34,863 bases of DNA from an uncultured Chloroflexota bacterium (GTDB lineage: Bacteria; Chloroflexota; UBA11872; UBA12225): the NCBI GenBank assembly GCA_903836285.1, contig CAILQO010000609.1, positions 1 through 34,863 of the forward strand, in the 5' to 3' direction. Positions 18,205 through 23,312 of this stretch are shown one piece after another (the first letter of the stretch is position 1; each line of letters begins with the position of its first letter). The notes under the pieces were generated by a model, which was not told the origin of the DNA, searched no databases, and saw only the letters and a program-made list of their open reading frames with translations. Position numbers and translations under genes: made by a program.

Positions 18205-20232
18205 ATGACGACCGCCAGACCGAACGCCAGTACGGCGCAGCGCACGCTCGTCGAGCGTGCGCTGCTGCAGCCACACACGGCAACCTACCGGCGCACGCTC
18301 GCCGTCGTCCTCACTTGAATCGTCGCCTCGATCGTTGCCCTGACGCTCGAAACCGTGCATCCCCTGCACGAGGACTACCTGGACGCCTTCGAGCTCGTCG
18401 ACCACGTCCTGCTGGTGATCTTTACGGTTGAATACCTCTGCAACATCTGGGTCGCGCCCGACCGCAAGGGGTACGTCCTCGGGGTTTGGGGACTCATCGA
18501 CCTCGTTTCGATCGCACCCTCGTTCCTTGCGCTGCTTGCCGGAAGCGGATCAACCGGTGCGATCCTGCCTGGGGTGCAGATTGGCTTCCTGCGCGAACTC
18601 CGGATTCTGCGGGTGCTTCGGATGCTGAAGCTCATGAAGCTGGCAAGCGAGCGCGCTTCGGAGTCCACAGCGACGGTGCGGGATCGCAACACGTTCTGGT
18701 TGGACTTCCAGATTTACCTGATCTGCCTGTTCACCGTCGTGATCATCAGCGCGACATTGATCTACCACATCGAGCCATACCCGCCCAACGCACCTGCCCT
18801 AGCCGAAGCGATCAAGCAGCTAGTGGACGGCACGGCGCCATCGACCGCGACCTGGGCGGCCGATCCGCTGCTCCTTGAATACAAGCTGCGAGCAGAGAAC
18901 GGGTGGCCCCTACCGACTTGGACCTTTGACAACGTCCCGATGGCTCTCTGGTGGAGCTTTGTCACGCTCACGACCACCGGGTACGGCGACATGTACCCGG
19001 TGACCGGCACAGGGCGCCTGGTGGGTGCCCTGACCATGCTGAGCGGCCTCGCGCTCTTCTCGCTGCTTACGAGCGTTGTCGGTCGCACGCTGATGAGGTC
19101 GCTGTTCGGCCGTCGCAGTGATGCCTCACCAGAGGCAATCCGACGTGCAACGGACGTGCGCGCCTTGGTCAATCAGGTGCGTGCCCTGCTGCCCGGCGTG
19201 GGTCTCTCAGCCCATGTGCCGGCGTCGGACGCTCTTCCAGCCGAGCCGTTCGCCGGGTTTGGGACCGCGGCGCGAGAGGTTGCCGGCGAGGTCGTTCGCC
19301 AGACCAGTGGCATGGAGTCCGTGCCTATCCGGACGGATGACCGCTCGTCGAACCTGTCACGGCTGCTCCACGCCGCGTTCGTCGACGAGGGCACCGCGCT
19401 CAGCGCCTGGGTGCGCCGGATCATCACGGCGCTCATCCTCGCCTCAATTGGCGTGGTCGTGCTCAACTCGGTAGCCGAGATTCACGAGGCGTGGGGGGCG
19501 ACGTTTGAGGTGGTCGAGGCCATGATGGTCATCGCATTCACCCTGGAATACCTGGCCTACCTCTACCTTGCCGAGAGCAAGCGCGACTACGCACTCGGAT
19601 TCTGGGGTCTCGTCGACTTGCTTACCATCCTTCCCACGTACGTCACGATCACGCTTGCGCTGACCTCGTCGCTCGGGGTGCCGGTGGACTTCTCGCACGG
19701 GATCGCCTTCAAGATCATCAGGATTCTTCGCGTCCTTCGGATGCTCCGAATCCTCAAGCTGATGAAGGGCGCCGTAGCGATCACCCAGAACACGCTTACC
19801 GGTGCAAAGACAACGTTCTGGATGGACCCTGGAATCTATTTGATCGCACTCCTCACAGTCCTGACAATGTCGTCGACGCTTGCATATACGCTGGAAGTTG
19901 ACGAACCGGGAACACAGTTCATTAATGTCCCCGTCGCCATGTGGTGGGCAATCGTCACGATCACCTCAACGGGGTACGGTGACATGTTCCCGGTCACCAT
20001 CGTTGGGCGCATGGTCGGCATAGTCACGATGATCGCGGGGCTCGCGTTGTTCGGAATCCTGACCAGCGTGATCGGGCGCGCGCTGATGAGTTCGCTGTTC
20101 GGTTCGAGCAGTGTCGGCGAGGAGGACCCGAGCACCGTCGGTCCTGAGGTGGATGCCCCGCTCGAACAGGCGCTGGCTGTGGTTCGCACCCTCAGCGATT
20201 CCCCAGCCTCTGAACGGCCACACATGCCCTAG
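18205..20232 (+). CDS. Tandem two-domain (2x6TM) voltage-gated potassium channel, paralog A; in-frame TGA at 18316-18318 (uninterrupted part 18355-20232)
   Basis: Two S4 sensors ([29 protein letters not shown]) and two filters (TTTGYGD 18970-18990, TSTGYGD 19963-19983); sequence upstream of the TGA is in the same frame and aligns with S1 of paralog B. Confidence 0.88.
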
Positions 20233-20256
20233 TGCGTGAGAGGGGAGGGGAGGGAT

Positions 20257-20293
20257 TGGCGCCCGGTGCCGACCAGTGGCACGTCGGGCGCCA
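20257..20293. terminator. Candidate bidirectional terminator hairpin between convergent genes
   Basis: TGGCGCCCG-GTGCC-gaccagt-GGCAC-gt-CGGGCGCCA, a 9+5 bp stem. Confidence 0.5.
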
Positions 20294-20334
20294 TCACCAG
20301 AAAGCGGGCGCGGGGGTGCCGGCCCACTTCGGGC

Positions 20335-20847
20335 CTACGCAACCGAGATGGTGATTGACTCGATGACTGCGCCGGGGGTGGTCGCGCGACCGGGGTCGCG
20401 TTCTGGGATGGCGTTCACGACATCCATGCCCTTGATCACCGTTCCGAACACAGCGTGGCGTCCGTCAAGGTGCGGGGTTGCGACGTGCGTGATGAAGAAC
20501 TGGCTTCCATTCGTGTTCGGCCCGGCGTTCGCCATCGAAAGCGTGCCGGGGCCAGAGTGCTTCAACTTAAGCGCCGAGGCCTCGTCGTCAAAGCGGTAGC
20601 CTGGTCCCCCACGGCCGCTCCCTGTGGGGTCTCCGGTCTGGACCATGAAGCCCTTGATGACACGATGGAAGGTCACGCCGTCGTAGAACCCGTCGCTCGC
20701 AAGGAAGACGAAGTTGTTCACAGTGGCGGGGGCCGACTTGGCATACAACTGGATCACGATATCGCCATAGTCGGTCTTGATGGTCGCCGTGTAGTCCTTC
20801 GACTCGTCGATGGACATGGCGGGCGGAGCGTCGTATTGCTTCGACAA
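20335..20847 (-). CDS. ppiA: Cyclophilin-type peptidyl-prolyl cis-trans isomerase
   Basis: [54 protein letters not shown] 20847 with GGAGAGGA 7 nt upstream. Confidence 0.95.
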
Positions 20848-20895
20848 TGTGCTGTCCTCTCCGCACCAGTTGGGTGCCCCGGCCCGTCCGGGACG

Positions 20896-20921
20896 GTCGG
20901 GCACCTGCACAGGTGCCCGAC
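20896..20921. repeat. Perfect 12-bp inverted repeat in the ppiA / channel B divergent intergenic region
   Basis: GTCGGGCACCTG-CA-CAGGTGCCCGAC, abutting a minus-strand TACACT hexamer (20922-20927). Confidence 0.75.
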
Positions 20922-21098
20922 AGTGTAGCGGGGGCGGGACCGTCAGTTGTCGCTGGTATCCTGCGCGAGTTGCACGCGGTGCTTTGCGTGCATCGCAAAT
21001 GACAGAACACCTGTTTGGGCCAGCGCCACCCAGCGCACCGCCCAGCACGCAGAGCGACTTGATGGCCGCCCCCCGCGGCCACCCCGAGAGGATCGAGC

Positions 21099-23312
21099 GT
21101 GGCACGAGACGTCCAGACCGCGACAGGTCAAGCCAACGACGGCGGCGCATCGGTAGGGTCCGAGGCCGCCGGGGTGTCACGCAACGGAACCAAGGGCTCA
21201 ACCGCCGCGGCGCAACCGCGCATTGGTCGGTCGAGGGGCATTCGGGGGATAGCTGAGGACGCGATCCTCGACCCGACGACGAACGCGTACAACACGTTAC
21301 TCAAGGTGGTGCTGGTCGCCATCCTCACGAGCATCGTGGTGCTCGCACTGGAGACGATGCACCCCCTCGTCGATGATTGGCACGACGAATTCCACGCGAT
21401 CGATCTCATCCTCCTCGCCGTGTTCACCTTTGAATACGCGGTGAACGTGTGGGTTCAGCCAAAGCGCGTCGCGTACATCTTCTCGCTTTGGGGGATCGTC
21501 GACTTCCTCGCGATCGCACCGGCGTACATCGAGATCATATTCGGGGGCGTAGAGAGCCTGGTCTTCTTGCGCCAGTTGCGGATCCTGCGGGTGATGCGGA
21601 TGCTCAAGCTGCTCAAGCTGGCCGCCGAGAAGGCGAGTGAGTCCGCAGCTCAGGCGACCGAGAAGAAGAGCACGTTCCTCATGGACATCCAGATCTACGG
21701 GATCTGCCTGTTCACCGTTCTCACCATCAGCTCATCGCTTCTCTACCAGTTCGAGGGCGTACGTCCGGGAGTCCCCGAGGTCACCAGCGATGCACTTGCC
21801 GCGATCGCGGATGCCGAGGAGAGCGGCGAAACGCCACCGGCCTGGGCGGAAGATCACATGGTGAAAATCTACCTCGAGCGTGCCGGAAAAGGTTGGTCCA
21901 ACCCTGTCTATACCTTTACGAGCGTCCCGAAGGCGTACTGGTGGTCGATCGTGACCCTGACGACGACGGGTTACGGCGACATGTTCCCCGTAACGCTCGG
22001 CGGGCGAGTCGTCGCCGGGGGCACCATGCTTGCTGGTCTCGGCCTGTTCTCGCTGCTGACAAGCGTCGTCGGTCGTGCACTGATGACGACCCTGTTCGGA
22101 AGCGATGAGGACACACCCCCTGCCAACAAGATCGTGGTCATTGGTGGGGGGCGCCTGCCAGAGGGCACCGACCTTCGCGCGCTCGTCGGGATCGAGGCGG
22201 TCGACCCGGTGCCACTAGCGCGCGAGCGGGGCGCGCTTGAGGGTGTCCTGATGGAGGGTGACCTCCGGTTGAGCGACCTGGCCCACTCGGTCGGCCAAGT
22301 CGCCGGCGACGTAGTGCGCGCTGCGTCCCAAGGTGCGGTCAGCAGCGACGCCGCAATCAGGCGAGACAAACCGGGTGTCGTCGACCGCCTGATCTACGCC
22401 GCGTTCGCCGACCACACCTCAAGCCTGTTCATGCCGATGCAGCAGTTCCTCACTGGGCTGATCTTCGGTTCGGTGGTCCTGGTGGTGGCCGACTCGATCC
22501 ACGAGGTTCACGAGGCGTACCACGTCTGGTTCGAGTGGATCGAAAAAGTGATCGTCCTGTGCTTCACCATCGAGTTTGTGGCCAATTACCGGTTAGCGCC
22601 AAGCAAGCTGAAGTACGTGTTTAGCATGTGGGGAATGGTCGACTTGCTGGCCATCCTGCCGACGTACATTGATCTCGGCATTTCGGCGCTCGCACTTATC
22701 GGCGTCGAGATGCACCTAGGCGGCGGCCTCCTCTTCAAGGTCCTCCGGATGCTCCGGGTGCTTCGGATGCTTAGGACGCTCAAGCTCGCCAAGACCGCGG
22801 CTGCAAATATGGAGAAGTCGATGAGCAAGAAGGGGGGATCCTCGTTCTCGACTAATCTCCAGATCTACTTCATCGCGCTATTCACTGTCCTAATCATTTC
22901 TTCGACGTTGATGTGGAACGTCGAGTTCGATCCACTTGACGAGAAGTCAACGACCATGTTCGTCAACATCCCTGCCGCGATGTGGTGGGGGATTGTCACG
23001 CTGTGCACTGTCGGCTACGGCGACATGTTCCCGGTGACCTTTGCCGGGCGGGTGATTGCGGGTGCCACGATGCTGTGCGGGCTCGCCCTCTTCGGGATCT
23101 TGACAAGCGTCATCGGGACCGCGCTTATGGCTTCGCTCTTCGGCTCGAGCGATCAGGACGCCGAACCCGAGGTCATTTACATCGATGCCCCACCTGAGCC
23201 AGAGGCACCCGTGGTGGGAAGTCTCGAACGATTGGTTGCGCTCAGGGCGGCCGGGGCACTATCAGACGAGGAGTTCGAGCGAGCCAAGACGGTTGCGCTC
23301 TGGCCGAGCTAA
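21099..23312 (+). CDS. Tandem two-domain (2x6TM) voltage-gated potassium channel, paralog B, with a C-terminal SHOCT-like domain
   Basis: S4 [13 protein letters not shown] and [16 protein letters not shown]; filters TTTGYGD 21960-21980 and CTVGYGD 23004-23024; tail [25 protein letters not shown] after GAGAGGA. Confidence 0.92.

What the first reader, a model, noticed from the sequence alone, without database searches (positions are those of the whole stretch)
18205..23312. Pair of bacterial two-repeat (2x6TM) voltage-gated K+ channels: a possible pseudo-four-domain channel
Seen: two nearby paralogs, each with two complete S1-S6 units. Each unit has an Arg/Lys-every-third S4 and a GYGD filter (A: TTTGYGD, TSTGYGD; B: TTTGYGD, CTVGYGD). 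Domain I of A resembles domain I of B, and II resembles II, so the internal duplication came before the gene duplication. Known: prokaryotic Kv/Nav channels are typically single-domain homotetramers. The 2x6TM layout is that of eukaryotic two-pore channels, the proposed intermediate towards four-domain Nav/Cav. Inference: these act as dimers, and an A+B heterodimer would give four different sensor/pore units in one K+ channel. I do not know of a characterised bacterial example, but I cannot search.
Basis: partly seen in the sequence, partly recalled or inferred. Interest (0 to 1): 0.85.

Follow-up and report, generated by a model that had tools for sequence, protein, structure and literature searches.

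The report
Bacterial tandem two-repeat Kv-like channels
Two neighbouring genes in an uncultured freshwater Chloroflexota bacterium each encode two complete voltage-gated potassium-channel units joined in one chain, a layout that reviews say prokaryotes lack, though one of the two genes carries a premature stop in this assembly.

Summary
Gene B (21099-23312) is intact. It has two complete S1-S6 repeats, each with a Pfam Ion_trans match, an R/K-every-third S4 and a GYGD filter. Gene A (18205-20232) has the same layout, but an in-frame TGA (18316-18318) interrupts S1 of repeat I. Three other metagenome assemblies read TCA (Ser) there, so the stop is specific to this strain or assembly.

The fusions are not artefacts. 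I found 24 complete two-repeat ORFs in 21 loci of other genomes, 20 of them titled Chloroflexota. The window's genome holds at least 7 such paralogs. Repeat trees and an AU test place the internal duplication before the A/B split.

By sequence and fold the repeats are Kv-like, not TPC-like. An obligate A+B heterodimer is unlikely: a same-genus genome keeps B and has no A.

The most likely function is a dimeric, pseudo-tetrameric voltage-gated K+ channel. This is inferred, not shown.

The papers I could search say this architecture does not occur in prokaryotes, and none describes a prokaryotic example. A second, independent two-repeat family also turned up, with one member named as an Asgard archaeon.

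The parts
18205..20232 (+). Gene A: two-repeat (2x6TM) Kv-like channel gene, 675 codons plus stop, interrupted by one in-frame TGA
   Evidence: Translation. Pfam Ion_trans matches twice. HMM domains at aa 5-314 and 373-644.
18316..18318 (+). In-frame TGA inside S1 of repeat I of gene A. Other assemblies read TCA (Ser), the G001 ortholog TCT (Ser), and the G006 and G013 orthologs GCC (Ala).
18217..19146 (+). Gene A repeat I (S1-S6), with S4 at 18592-18639, a roughly 45-aa S5-P insertion and filter TTTGYGD at 18970-18990
19321..20136 (+). Gene A repeat II (S1-S6), with S4 at 19711-19758 and filter TSTGYGD at 19963-19983. It has P542-G543 where at least 90% of relatives have L-Q in the DLQIY motif.
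20335..20850 (-). Cyclophilin-type peptidyl-prolyl isomerase gene lying between A and B on the opposite strand. The position is conserved in relatives.
   Evidence: Pfam PF00160, E 1.1e-49. Synteny.
21099..23312 (+). Gene B: intact two-repeat (2x6TM) Kv-like channel, 737 aa from GTG 21099. The true start may lie further downstream.
21222..22130 (+). Gene B repeat I, with S4 at 21570-21617, a structured S5-P insertion (helices at 229-242 and 248-264 in the model) and filter TTTGYGD at 21960-21980
22356..23174 (+). Gene B repeat II, with S4 at 22737-22784 and filter CTVGYGD at 23004-23024
23223..23294 (+). C-terminal SHOCT-like segment of B (aa 709-732). The match is borderline and is seen in only 2 of the 37 aligned family members.
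   Evidence: Pfam PF09851, 27.3 bits against a cut-off of 27. 2 of 37 members.

Best explanation
These genes belong to a lineage-restricted, expanded family of tandem (2x6TM) Kv-like channels in uncultured freshwater Chloroflexota.

Each polypeptide carries two non-identical Shaker-type units. Each unit has a voltage sensor with a full set of S4 charges and a pore loop with a GYGD K+ filter. The two units are joined by a linker of about 80 residues that is predicted to be disordered.

A K+ pore needs four P-loops. The working channel is therefore most likely a dimer, with repeats I and II alternating around a pseudo-fourfold pore and with two kinds of voltage sensor. This part is inferred. On that reading the channel would open with voltage and conduct K+.

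Gene B is intact and is the gene expected to work in this organism. Gene A is an older paralog that carries a premature stop in this assembly. Together with two changes at conserved positions, that makes it either a young pseudogene or an assembly error.

The architecture arose from a single-domain bacterial Kv-like ancestor, independently of eukaryotic TPCs.
For: Shown:
- Pfam Ion_trans matches twice in each protein.
- Each repeat spans nearly the whole single-domain profile, positions about 5-254.
- There are four GYGD filters and four S4 segments with 6-7 R/K at every third residue.
- F-x-x-E in S2 and an Asp in S3 are invariant or nearly invariant in both repeats across 37 family members: F109, E112 and D135, and F489, E492 and D515. 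Reading these as the gating-charge transfer centre is recalled knowledge.
- The closest solved structures by sequence are Kv1.2 (E 8.5e-24), Kv3.1, Kv1.3, Kv2.1, Kv4.2, Shaker and KCNQ.
- Foldseek on the AlphaFold2 model of B (pLDDT 73) gives Kv4.2, Kv3.1 and Kv1.3 for single repeats, and Nav or Cav chains over about 700 columns.

Not an artefact:
- Intact orthologs exist in G001, G006 and G013.
- 24 complete two-repeat ORFs lie in 21 of 80 loci.
- Contigs from 3 studies each span the whole of gene A in one piece.

Conserved asymmetry: 16 of 16 proteins P0003-P0018 have LTTTGYGD plus LCTVGYGD.

Evolution:
- All repeats of the family form one clade (support 99) next to single-domain channels, and the I and II clades are mirrored.

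Expansion: 18 Ion_trans matches in the genome, 14 of them in 7 two-repeat ORFs.

Status of A.
Against: - There is no functional, stoichiometric or selectivity measurement. The dimer, K+ selectivity and voltage gating all rest on motif and family knowledge.
- The monomer model is only moderate (pLDDT 73, pTM 0.63).
- In one relative, G010 (UBA2235, L029), both A and B appear as two overlapping ORFs each. These are either real breaks or assembly frameshifts.
- Evidence for expression is a single 191-base identical contig in one metatranscriptome, which could be carried-over DNA.
- One paralog type (C84) has non-canonical filters (LATHGSAF and LTSTGSGV), so not every family member need be K+ selective.
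Confidence: 0.75

Rival explanations
1. A and B are obligate partners. One A and one B chain would form a heterodimer with four different sensor/pore units.
For: The order GNAT(-), A, cyclophilin(-), B, Usp is conserved in four other genomes of two genera: G001, G006, G013 and G010. The A and B subclades are mirrored in the repeat trees.
Against: - L035 (G002, same genus) keeps GNAT, cyclophilin, B, Usp and PALP, with no A between GNAT and cyclophilin.
- A has a premature stop in this window.
- A and B are separated by a gene on the other strand, so they are not one operon.
- At least 5 further two-repeat paralogs elsewhere in the genome could equally be partners.
Confidence: 0.12
2. The TGA in gene A is a consensus or assembly error of this fragmented metagenome-assembled genome, and A is intact in the living organism.
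For: - It is a single base: TGA here against TCA in contigs of three runs from three studies.
- The genome is in 619 contigs and 89% complete.
- 17 of the 28 differing codons against the other strain are synonymous.
Against: - The same allele also has Pro-Gly where at least 90% of relatives have Leu-Gln at the start of S5 of repeat II.
- A has been lost in a same-genus genome, so decay of A is plausible.
- None of the four laid runs held a contig at least 99% identical across this codon, so the window's own population was not checked.
Confidence: 0.35
3. The proteins are not voltage-gated K+ channels in practice. They could be non-selective or constitutively open pores, or voltage sensors coupled to some other output.
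For: Many prokaryotic 6TM K+ channel homologs have never been shown to gate by voltage (general knowledge). Paralog C84 has degenerate filters.
Against: A and B keep canonical T-x-G-Y-G-D filters in all four repeats and 6-7 S4 charges. The F-x-x-E and Asp positions are conserved across 37 relatives.
Confidence: 0.12
4. The two-repeat ORFs are artefacts: mis-joined contigs, or two adjacent genes read through.
For: The genomes are metagenome assemblies. In G010 the genes appear split.
Against: - The same architecture appears in 24 complete ORFs from 21 loci of several independent assemblies.
- It appears in database proteins from JGI, ENA, NCBI and Logan.
- It appears in three Logan contigs that span A without gaps.
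- Repeats I and II are only 40-42% identical, so collapse of a repeat is not an issue.
Confidence: 0.02

Closest known systems
Single-domain prokaryotic Kv-like channels (Pfam Ion_trans; KvAP-type, name recalled)
   Same: Each repeat is a full 6TM unit with an R/K-every-third S4, a GYGD filter and a glycine in S6. The nearest relatives in the tree are single-domain bacterial channels.
   Different: Here two diverged units (40-42% identical) are fused in one chain. That implies a dimer with two kinds of sensor and a mixed filter, rather than a homotetramer.
[quoted passage not shown]
   Same: Both are 2x6TM with K+-type filters, and first and second repeats form separate clades. Both are functionally uncharacterised.
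   Different: Those are eukaryotic, and prokaryotes served only as single-domain references in the passages I read. The proteins here are bacterial and cluster with bacterial single-domain channels. The eukaryote-looking multi-repeat hits are only about 30% identical.
Two-pore channels (TPC1/TPC2)
   Same: Both have the 2x6TM layout. TPCs function as dimers with a pseudo-tetrameric pore (recalled, together with PMC7312350 passages).
   Different: - No TPC appears among the 60 best solved-structure sequence matches or among the Foldseek rows listed.
- The filters here are GYGD K+ filters.
- The linker has no recognised domain.
- The origin is independent.
K2P (two-pore-domain) K+ channels
   Same: Two pore loops sit in one chain and the channel is expected to be a dimer. 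The extra structured extracellular segment is found only in the first pore loop (the K2P cap is described in PMC13715775).
   Different: K2P channels have 2x2TM and no voltage sensors. PMC13715775 states that K2P-type tandem channels are not found in prokaryotes.
A second prokaryotic two-repeat family (P0105, P0152, P0199, P0201-P0206; P0205 is named as a Hermodarchaeota archaeon)
   Same: Both are 2x6TM with GYG-type filters, about 560-616 aa long.
   Different: It lies on the other side of a branch with support 100, among different single-domain relatives. One clade of all two-repeat rows is rejected (p-AU 0.00027). Its members have CxxC pairs in the linker and tail.

Membership tests
Voltage-gated ion channel superfamily (Pfam Ion_trans PF00520) | A match to the 6TM Ion_trans profile above the curated cut-off | tested here: met
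   A scores 177.6 bits and B 191.1 bits against a cut-off of 25, with two matched stretches each. All 37 aligned relatives match.
K+ channels | The signature filter T-x-G-Y/F-G in every pore loop | tested here: met
   TTTGYGD and TSTGYGD in A, TTTGYGD and CTVGYGD in B.
K+ channels | Selective K+ conduction | not testable with these tools
   Needs electrophysiology or flux assays.
Kv-type (Shaker-like) voltage-gated channels | An S4 with at least 4 basic residues at every third position, plus acidic and aromatic counter-residues in S2 and S3 | tested here: met
   There are 6 or 7 R/K per S4. F-x-x-E and Asp are invariant or nearly invariant in both repeats. Their role as the charge-transfer centre is recalled, not tested.
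Kv-type (Shaker-like) voltage-gated channels | Homotetramer of single 6TM subunits | tested here: not met
   Two 6TM units lie in one ORF. So this is a Kv-like protein with a different quaternary plan.
Two-pore channels (TPC) | Sequence kinship with TPC1/TPC2 and a non-GYG filter | tested here: not met
   All 60 rows shown are K+ channels (57 Kv or KCNQ, two MloK1, one Lmo2059) and none is a TPC. The filters are GYGD.
Tandem (2x6TM) channels in general | Two complete S1-S6 repeats in one polypeptide, conserved in relatives | tested here: met
   For gene A in this window the condition is met only if the TGA is read through.
Tandem (2x6TM) channels in general | Assembly as a dimer | tested here: inconclusive
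   The one complex job gave no answer. It counts neither for nor against.

The most novel reading that the evidence does not exclude
Prokaryotes invented covalently linked, pseudo-tetrameric voltage-gated K+ channels at least twice: once in freshwater Chloroflexota and once in a group that includes an Asgard-labelled archaeon.

In the Chloroflexota the family expanded to at least 7 paralogs per genome. Their chains could mix as heterodimers to give channels with up to four different sensor/pore units. That would be a bacterial parallel to the path that led to four-domain Nav and Cav channels.
Probability: 0.2. Interest if true: 0.85.

Novelty: new variant of a known kind. Interest (0 to 1): 0.65.

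Why it matters
Reviews I read in passages state that tandem channel architectures are missing from prokaryotes:
- TPC-like 2x6TM is found 'not in prokaryotes' (PMC7312350).
- Tandem K+ channels 'do not occur in bacteria' (PMC13715775).
- None was met in 270 prokaryotic genomes (PMC2234077).

A conserved, expanded bacterial family with this layout contradicts the broad form of those statements. It also shows that the step from homotetramer to concatenated, asymmetric channel can happen outside eukaryotes.

If the proteins express well, as bacterial channels often do, they would give a tractable system for three questions:
- What two different voltage sensors and a mixed selectivity filter do in one pore.
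- How the repeats specialise after fusion.
- Whether paralogs mix.

The physiological role is also open. It is unknown why a small-genome planktonic bacterium keeps seven or more such channels.

Tried and rejected
**Selenocysteine or recoding at the TGA.** Rejected.
- TGA ends 10 of the 24 long ORFs in the window.
- No Rfam match at gathering score.
- Relatives have Ser or Ala at that position, in a membrane helix.

**The 'TGA' reported in the G013 ortholog.** It lies upstream of the start codon, not in the gene.

**Dimer prediction.** I sent the compact paralog (G000:C248, residues 20-515, two copies, 19-row alignment), because two copies of A or B exceed the 1000-residue limit. Verdict: no answer, scores 0.16 and 0.15 against a mark of 0.42, and the controls were not run. 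This counts neither for nor against binding. A and B themselves were not tried.

**Expression.** One RNA run held a 191-base identical contig inside A plus short paralog-like pieces. That is too little to claim transcription.

**SHOCT as a family feature.** Only 2 of 37 members match.

**A close four-repeat form.** The best 150 representatives include 3- and 4-repeat proteins (P0060, P0064, P0135 and others). They are about 30% identical and look eukaryotic from their low-complexity linkers. I did not establish their origin.

**Phylum-wide scan.** 0 of 400 other genomes matched at E <= 1e-60, but only two candidates per genome were scored.

**Limits of the genome-contig scan.** It used only two peptide patterns, so it is not a census of two-Ion_trans proteins in prokaryotes.

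**Paper searches for a prokaryotic 2x6TM channel** found none.
- The library lacks most subscription journals.
The sequence list of PMC7576140 (Table S1) could not be checked.
- I could not query InterPro or TCDB.

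
Full report
**What is in the window**

ORF listing and translation show two + strand genes.

Gene B runs from 21099 to 23312 (737 aa from GTG) and is open throughout.

Its 38th codon is TGA (18316-18318). Aligned with B and with orthologs, this codon falls without any gap in the middle of S1 of repeat I. 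The longest stop-free ORF begins at GTG 18355 (625 aa) and would lack S1.

TGA is an ordinary stop here. It ends 10 of the 24 long ORFs I checked in the window, and no Rfam family matched at gathering score.

**Anatomy**

Pfam finds Ion_trans (PF00520) twice and Ion_trans_2 twice in each protein. E-values are 3.2e-52 for A and 2.4e-56 for B. B also has a borderline C-terminal SHOCT match, 27.3 bits against a cut-off of 27.

I built a profile from 19 single-domain relatives. It matches each repeat over almost its full length, about positions 5-254.

- A: TTTGYGD and TSTGYGD.
- B: TTTGYGD and CTVGYGD.

The four S4 segments carry 6 (repeat I) or 7 (repeat II) Arg/Lys at every third position.

Across 37 aligned family members, two sets of positions are invariant or nearly invariant:
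- Repeat I: F109, E112 and D135.
- Repeat II: F489, E492 and D515.

From memory, F-x-x-E in S2 plus Asp in S3 is the Shaker gating-charge transfer centre. On that reading both sensors look competent.

Other features:
- Repeat I of both A and B has a roughly 45-residue insertion between S5 and the pore helix. The AlphaFold2 model predicts it as helices with pLDDT 85-92.
- Repeat II of both has a longer S3-S4 loop.
- The linker between repeats (B residues about 335-425) is low-confidence.

**Not chance, not an artefact**

Intact orthologs of A and B lie in the same order in other genomes:
- G001, same genus: A 76% and B 87% identical.
- G006 and G013, another genus: 63% and 72-73% identical.

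A database search returned 52 proteins at E <= 1e-10. They come from JGI, ENA, NCBI and Logan. Where named, they are called only 'ion transporter [Chloroflexi bacterium]' or 'voltage-gated potassium channel'.

Logan contigs of three DNA runs from three studies each cover the whole of 18100-20300 in one piece, with 29-32 differences.

In a scan of one genome per prokaryotic species, the 80 loci kept break down as follows:
- 21 hold 24 complete two-repeat ORFs.
- 5 hold partial or split ones.
- 2 hold two adjacent single-domain genes.
- 52 hold single-domain genes.

Of the 21 loci with complete two-repeat ORFs, 20 are titled Chloroflexota or Chloroflexi, including several titled Thermoflexus. 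One is a 2.4-kb contig titled Bifidobacteriaceae that resembles a Chloroflexota locus and is probably mis-binned.

Results against:
- In G010 (UBA2235, L029) both A and B appear as two overlapping ORFs.
- Four of the five partial loci (L034, L078, L087, L095) hold ORFs that reach a contig end.

**The stop in A**

At the TGA position, G001 has TCT (Ser) and G006 and G013 have GCC (Ala). All three DNA assemblies that I laid read T>A at 18315 and G>C at 18317. That gives ACA TCA, Thr-Ser, an intact gene.

Against that allele, the window's A differs in 28 codons: 17 synonymous and 11 not. Besides the stop, the non-synonymous ones include Pro542-Gly543. At least 90% of 37 relatives have Leu-Gln at those positions, in the DLQIY motif at the start of S5 of repeat II.

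In L035 (G002, same genus) the flanking genes GNAT and cyclophilin are adjacent and B, Usp and PALP follow, so A is not there.

A is therefore dispensable in this lineage. In this window it is either a young pseudogene or carries an assembly error. I put these at roughly 60:35. No laid run held a contig at least 99% identical across this codon, so the window's own population was not checked.

**Family size and spread**

The window's genome is 3.66 Mb in 619 contigs and 89% complete. It has 18 Ion_trans matches:
- 14 lie in 7 two-repeat ORFs.
  - A and B are in the window.
  - C493 and C580 are B-like.
  - C45 has filters LSLTGYGD and LCNVGYGD.
  - C248 is a compact 526-aa form with two TTTGYGD filters.
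  - C84 has filters LATHGSAF and LTSTGSGV.
- One is a fragment at a contig end (C225).
- One is a single-domain gene (C355).
- Two are weak (C142).

Among the 40 nearest genomes, full-length two-repeat matches (E < 1e-150) occur only in G001, G002, G006, G010 and G013, which belong to two genera of one family. Genomes of the same order or class have only single-domain matches, with E 1e-15 to 1e-27 and open frames of 272-405 aa.

In an even sample of 400 other genomes of the phylum, none matched at E <= 1e-60, with only two candidates per genome scored.

Reading all 1.84 billion representatives, 18,092 proteins match at E <= 1e-3 but only 57 at E <= 1e-30.

The window's stretch is held at 80% of sampled words or more by 15 runs from 8 studies, 14 of them labelled estuary, lake, freshwater, aquatic or aquaculture and one soil.

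**Order of events**

I built a tree of 93 rows: 74 repeats and 19 single-domain proteins (quick IQ-TREE with a mixture model).
- All repeats of the family, plus one long-branch single, fall in one clade (support 99) next to single-domain channels.
- For the long forms, the 24 repeat I rows form one clade (99) and the 24 repeat II rows another (97).
- Each of these splits into an A group of 8 rows and a B-like group of 16 rows.

Holding A-I and A-II (window and G001) together costs 64.4 log-likelihood units, p-AU 0.00145. Two caveats apply: I named the group after seeing the tree, and this test used LG+G4 on a 47-row set.

The placement of repeat II of the compact forms is unresolved.

The asymmetry is conserved. 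All 16 proteins P0003-P0018 have LTTTGYGD plus LCTVGYGD.

**What it resembles**

By sequence, all 60 solved-structure matches shown are K+ channels.
- 57 are Kv or KCNQ rows, led by Kv1.2 at E 8.5e-24 and including Kv3.1, Kv1.3, Kv2.1, Kv4.2 and Shaker.
- The other three are two MloK1 rows and one Lmo2059 row.
- None is a TPC.

Foldseek with the model of B lists Kv4.2, Kv3.1 and Kv1.3 for one repeat, and Nav or Cav chains over about 700 columns.

So this is a Kv-like protein that has taken on the two-repeat plan. It is not a relative of TPCs.

**Mechanism (inferred)**

A K+ pore needs four P-loops, so two chains must combine. By analogy with TPC and K2P (recalled), repeats I and II would alternate around the pore. 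That would give two TTTGYGD and two CTVGYGD strands in B's filter and two kinds of sensor.

The long helical S4-S5 segment in the model (helix 155-187) fits a domain-swapped Kv1-type arrangement.

The two repeat I insertions could form an extracellular structure over the pore. This is speculation.

A+B heterodimers are possible but cannot be obligatory, as the section on the stop in A shows. A and B are also not co-transcribed, because a cyclophilin gene on the other strand lies between them.

The surroundings are ordinary chromosomal genes (ParB, ParA, a DnaJ-C28-like protein, GNAT, Usp, a PLP enzyme) and give no functional hint.

**Literature**

I read passages only, using the find mode.
- PMC7312350 (2020): the TPC-like 2x6TM architecture is found in unicellular eukaryotes 'but not in prokaryotes'.
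[quoted passage not shown] The context is K2P.
- PMC7576140 (2020): describes tandem two-repeat Kv-like channels in dinoflagellates, oomycetes and a chlorarachniophyte. Prokaryotic sequences were taken from earlier single-domain sets.
- PMC7041947: treats prokaryotic Nav and Cav channels as homotetramers.
- PMC12749960, bioRxiv 10.1101/2025.09.21.677649 and PMC3924187 held nothing relevant in the passages found.

Seven searches found no description of a prokaryotic 2x6TM channel. The library is partial, supplements were closed, and I could not query InterPro or TCDB.

**A second family**

Among the weaker hits are compact two-repeat proteins. Searching with P0105 gave 10 further complete two-repeat proteins: P0152, P0157, P0199 and P0201-P0206, plus P0153 from the earlier search. 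One of them, P0205, is named 'potassium channel family protein [Candidatus Hermodarchaeota archaeon]'.

In a 47-row tree they sit with different single-domain relatives, across a branch with support 100 from the Chloroflexota family. One clade of all two-repeat rows is rejected, p-AU 0.00027.

So the architecture arose at least twice in sequences that look prokaryotic. Only one member of this second family carries an organism name.

**Verdict**

It is wrong or unsupported about TPC kinship and about an A+B unit.

It is a new variant of a known kind: a Kv-like channel with a tandem plan known from eukaryotes. It is undescribed for prokaryotes in what I could search. It is interesting for channel evolution and as a possible structural model. 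No function has been tested.

Noticed in passing
G000:C84 (L008, - strand ORF 265-1986); relatives L015, P0032, P0033, P0058: A two-repeat paralog type whose pore loops read LATHGSAF and LTSTGSGV (LTTTGSGA in relatives) instead of GYG. S4 and the overall fold are kept. It may have a different ion selectivity.
   Followed up: partly
L048 (2845-4077 and 4138-5409) and L070 (2752-4065 and 4215-5408), Verrucomicrobiota-titled MAGs: Two single-domain Kv-like genes lie head to tail. Each has a long S5-P insertion like repeat I of A and B. They look like an unfused two-gene counterpart of the tandem channel.
   Followed up: no
P0105, P0152, P0157, P0199, P0201-P0206: A second, independent two-repeat 6TM family (555-616 aa). 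One member is named as a Hermodarchaeota (Asgard) archaeon. CxxC pairs occur in the inter-repeat linker and at the C-terminus.
   Followed up: partly
P0049, P0052, P0150 and 101 of 121 scored hits; named rows include Betaproteobacteria and Limnohabitans: Proteins of about 550 aa with an extra voltage-sensor-like S1-S4 module in front of a complete 6TM K+ channel (VSD-VSD-pore). P0137 has three sensor-like modules and one pore.
   Followed up: no
L035 (G002:C59) against window 17452-21099: Gene A is absent between the GNAT and cyclophilin genes in a same-genus genome, while B, Usp and PALP are kept. B there sits in an open frame of 1111 codons. Much of that is upstream of repeat I, which starts at residue 367, and the inter-repeat linker is also longer.
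   Followed up: partly
L029 (G010, UBA2235): Both the A and the B ortholog appear as two overlapping ORFs each. These are either frameshift errors in that assembly or parallel decay.
   Followed up: no
L026: A 2.4-kb contig titled 'uncultured Bifidobacteriaceae bacterium' carries a two-repeat channel with the same length (736 aa), domain layout and identity to B (66%) as the one in Chloroflexota locus L027. The contig is probably mis-binned.
   Followed up: no
window 23430-24932 (+): A 500-aa protein downstream of B. Pfam recognises only the N-terminal Usp domain (aa 77-227). The rest is unassigned. It is conserved next to B in relatives.
   Followed up: no
P0060 (1748 aa), P0064 (1493 aa), P0135, P0071, P0077: Metagenomic proteins with three or four Kv-like repeats and GYG filters, with low-complexity linkers. 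They are probably protist multi-repeat K+ channels.
   Followed up: no
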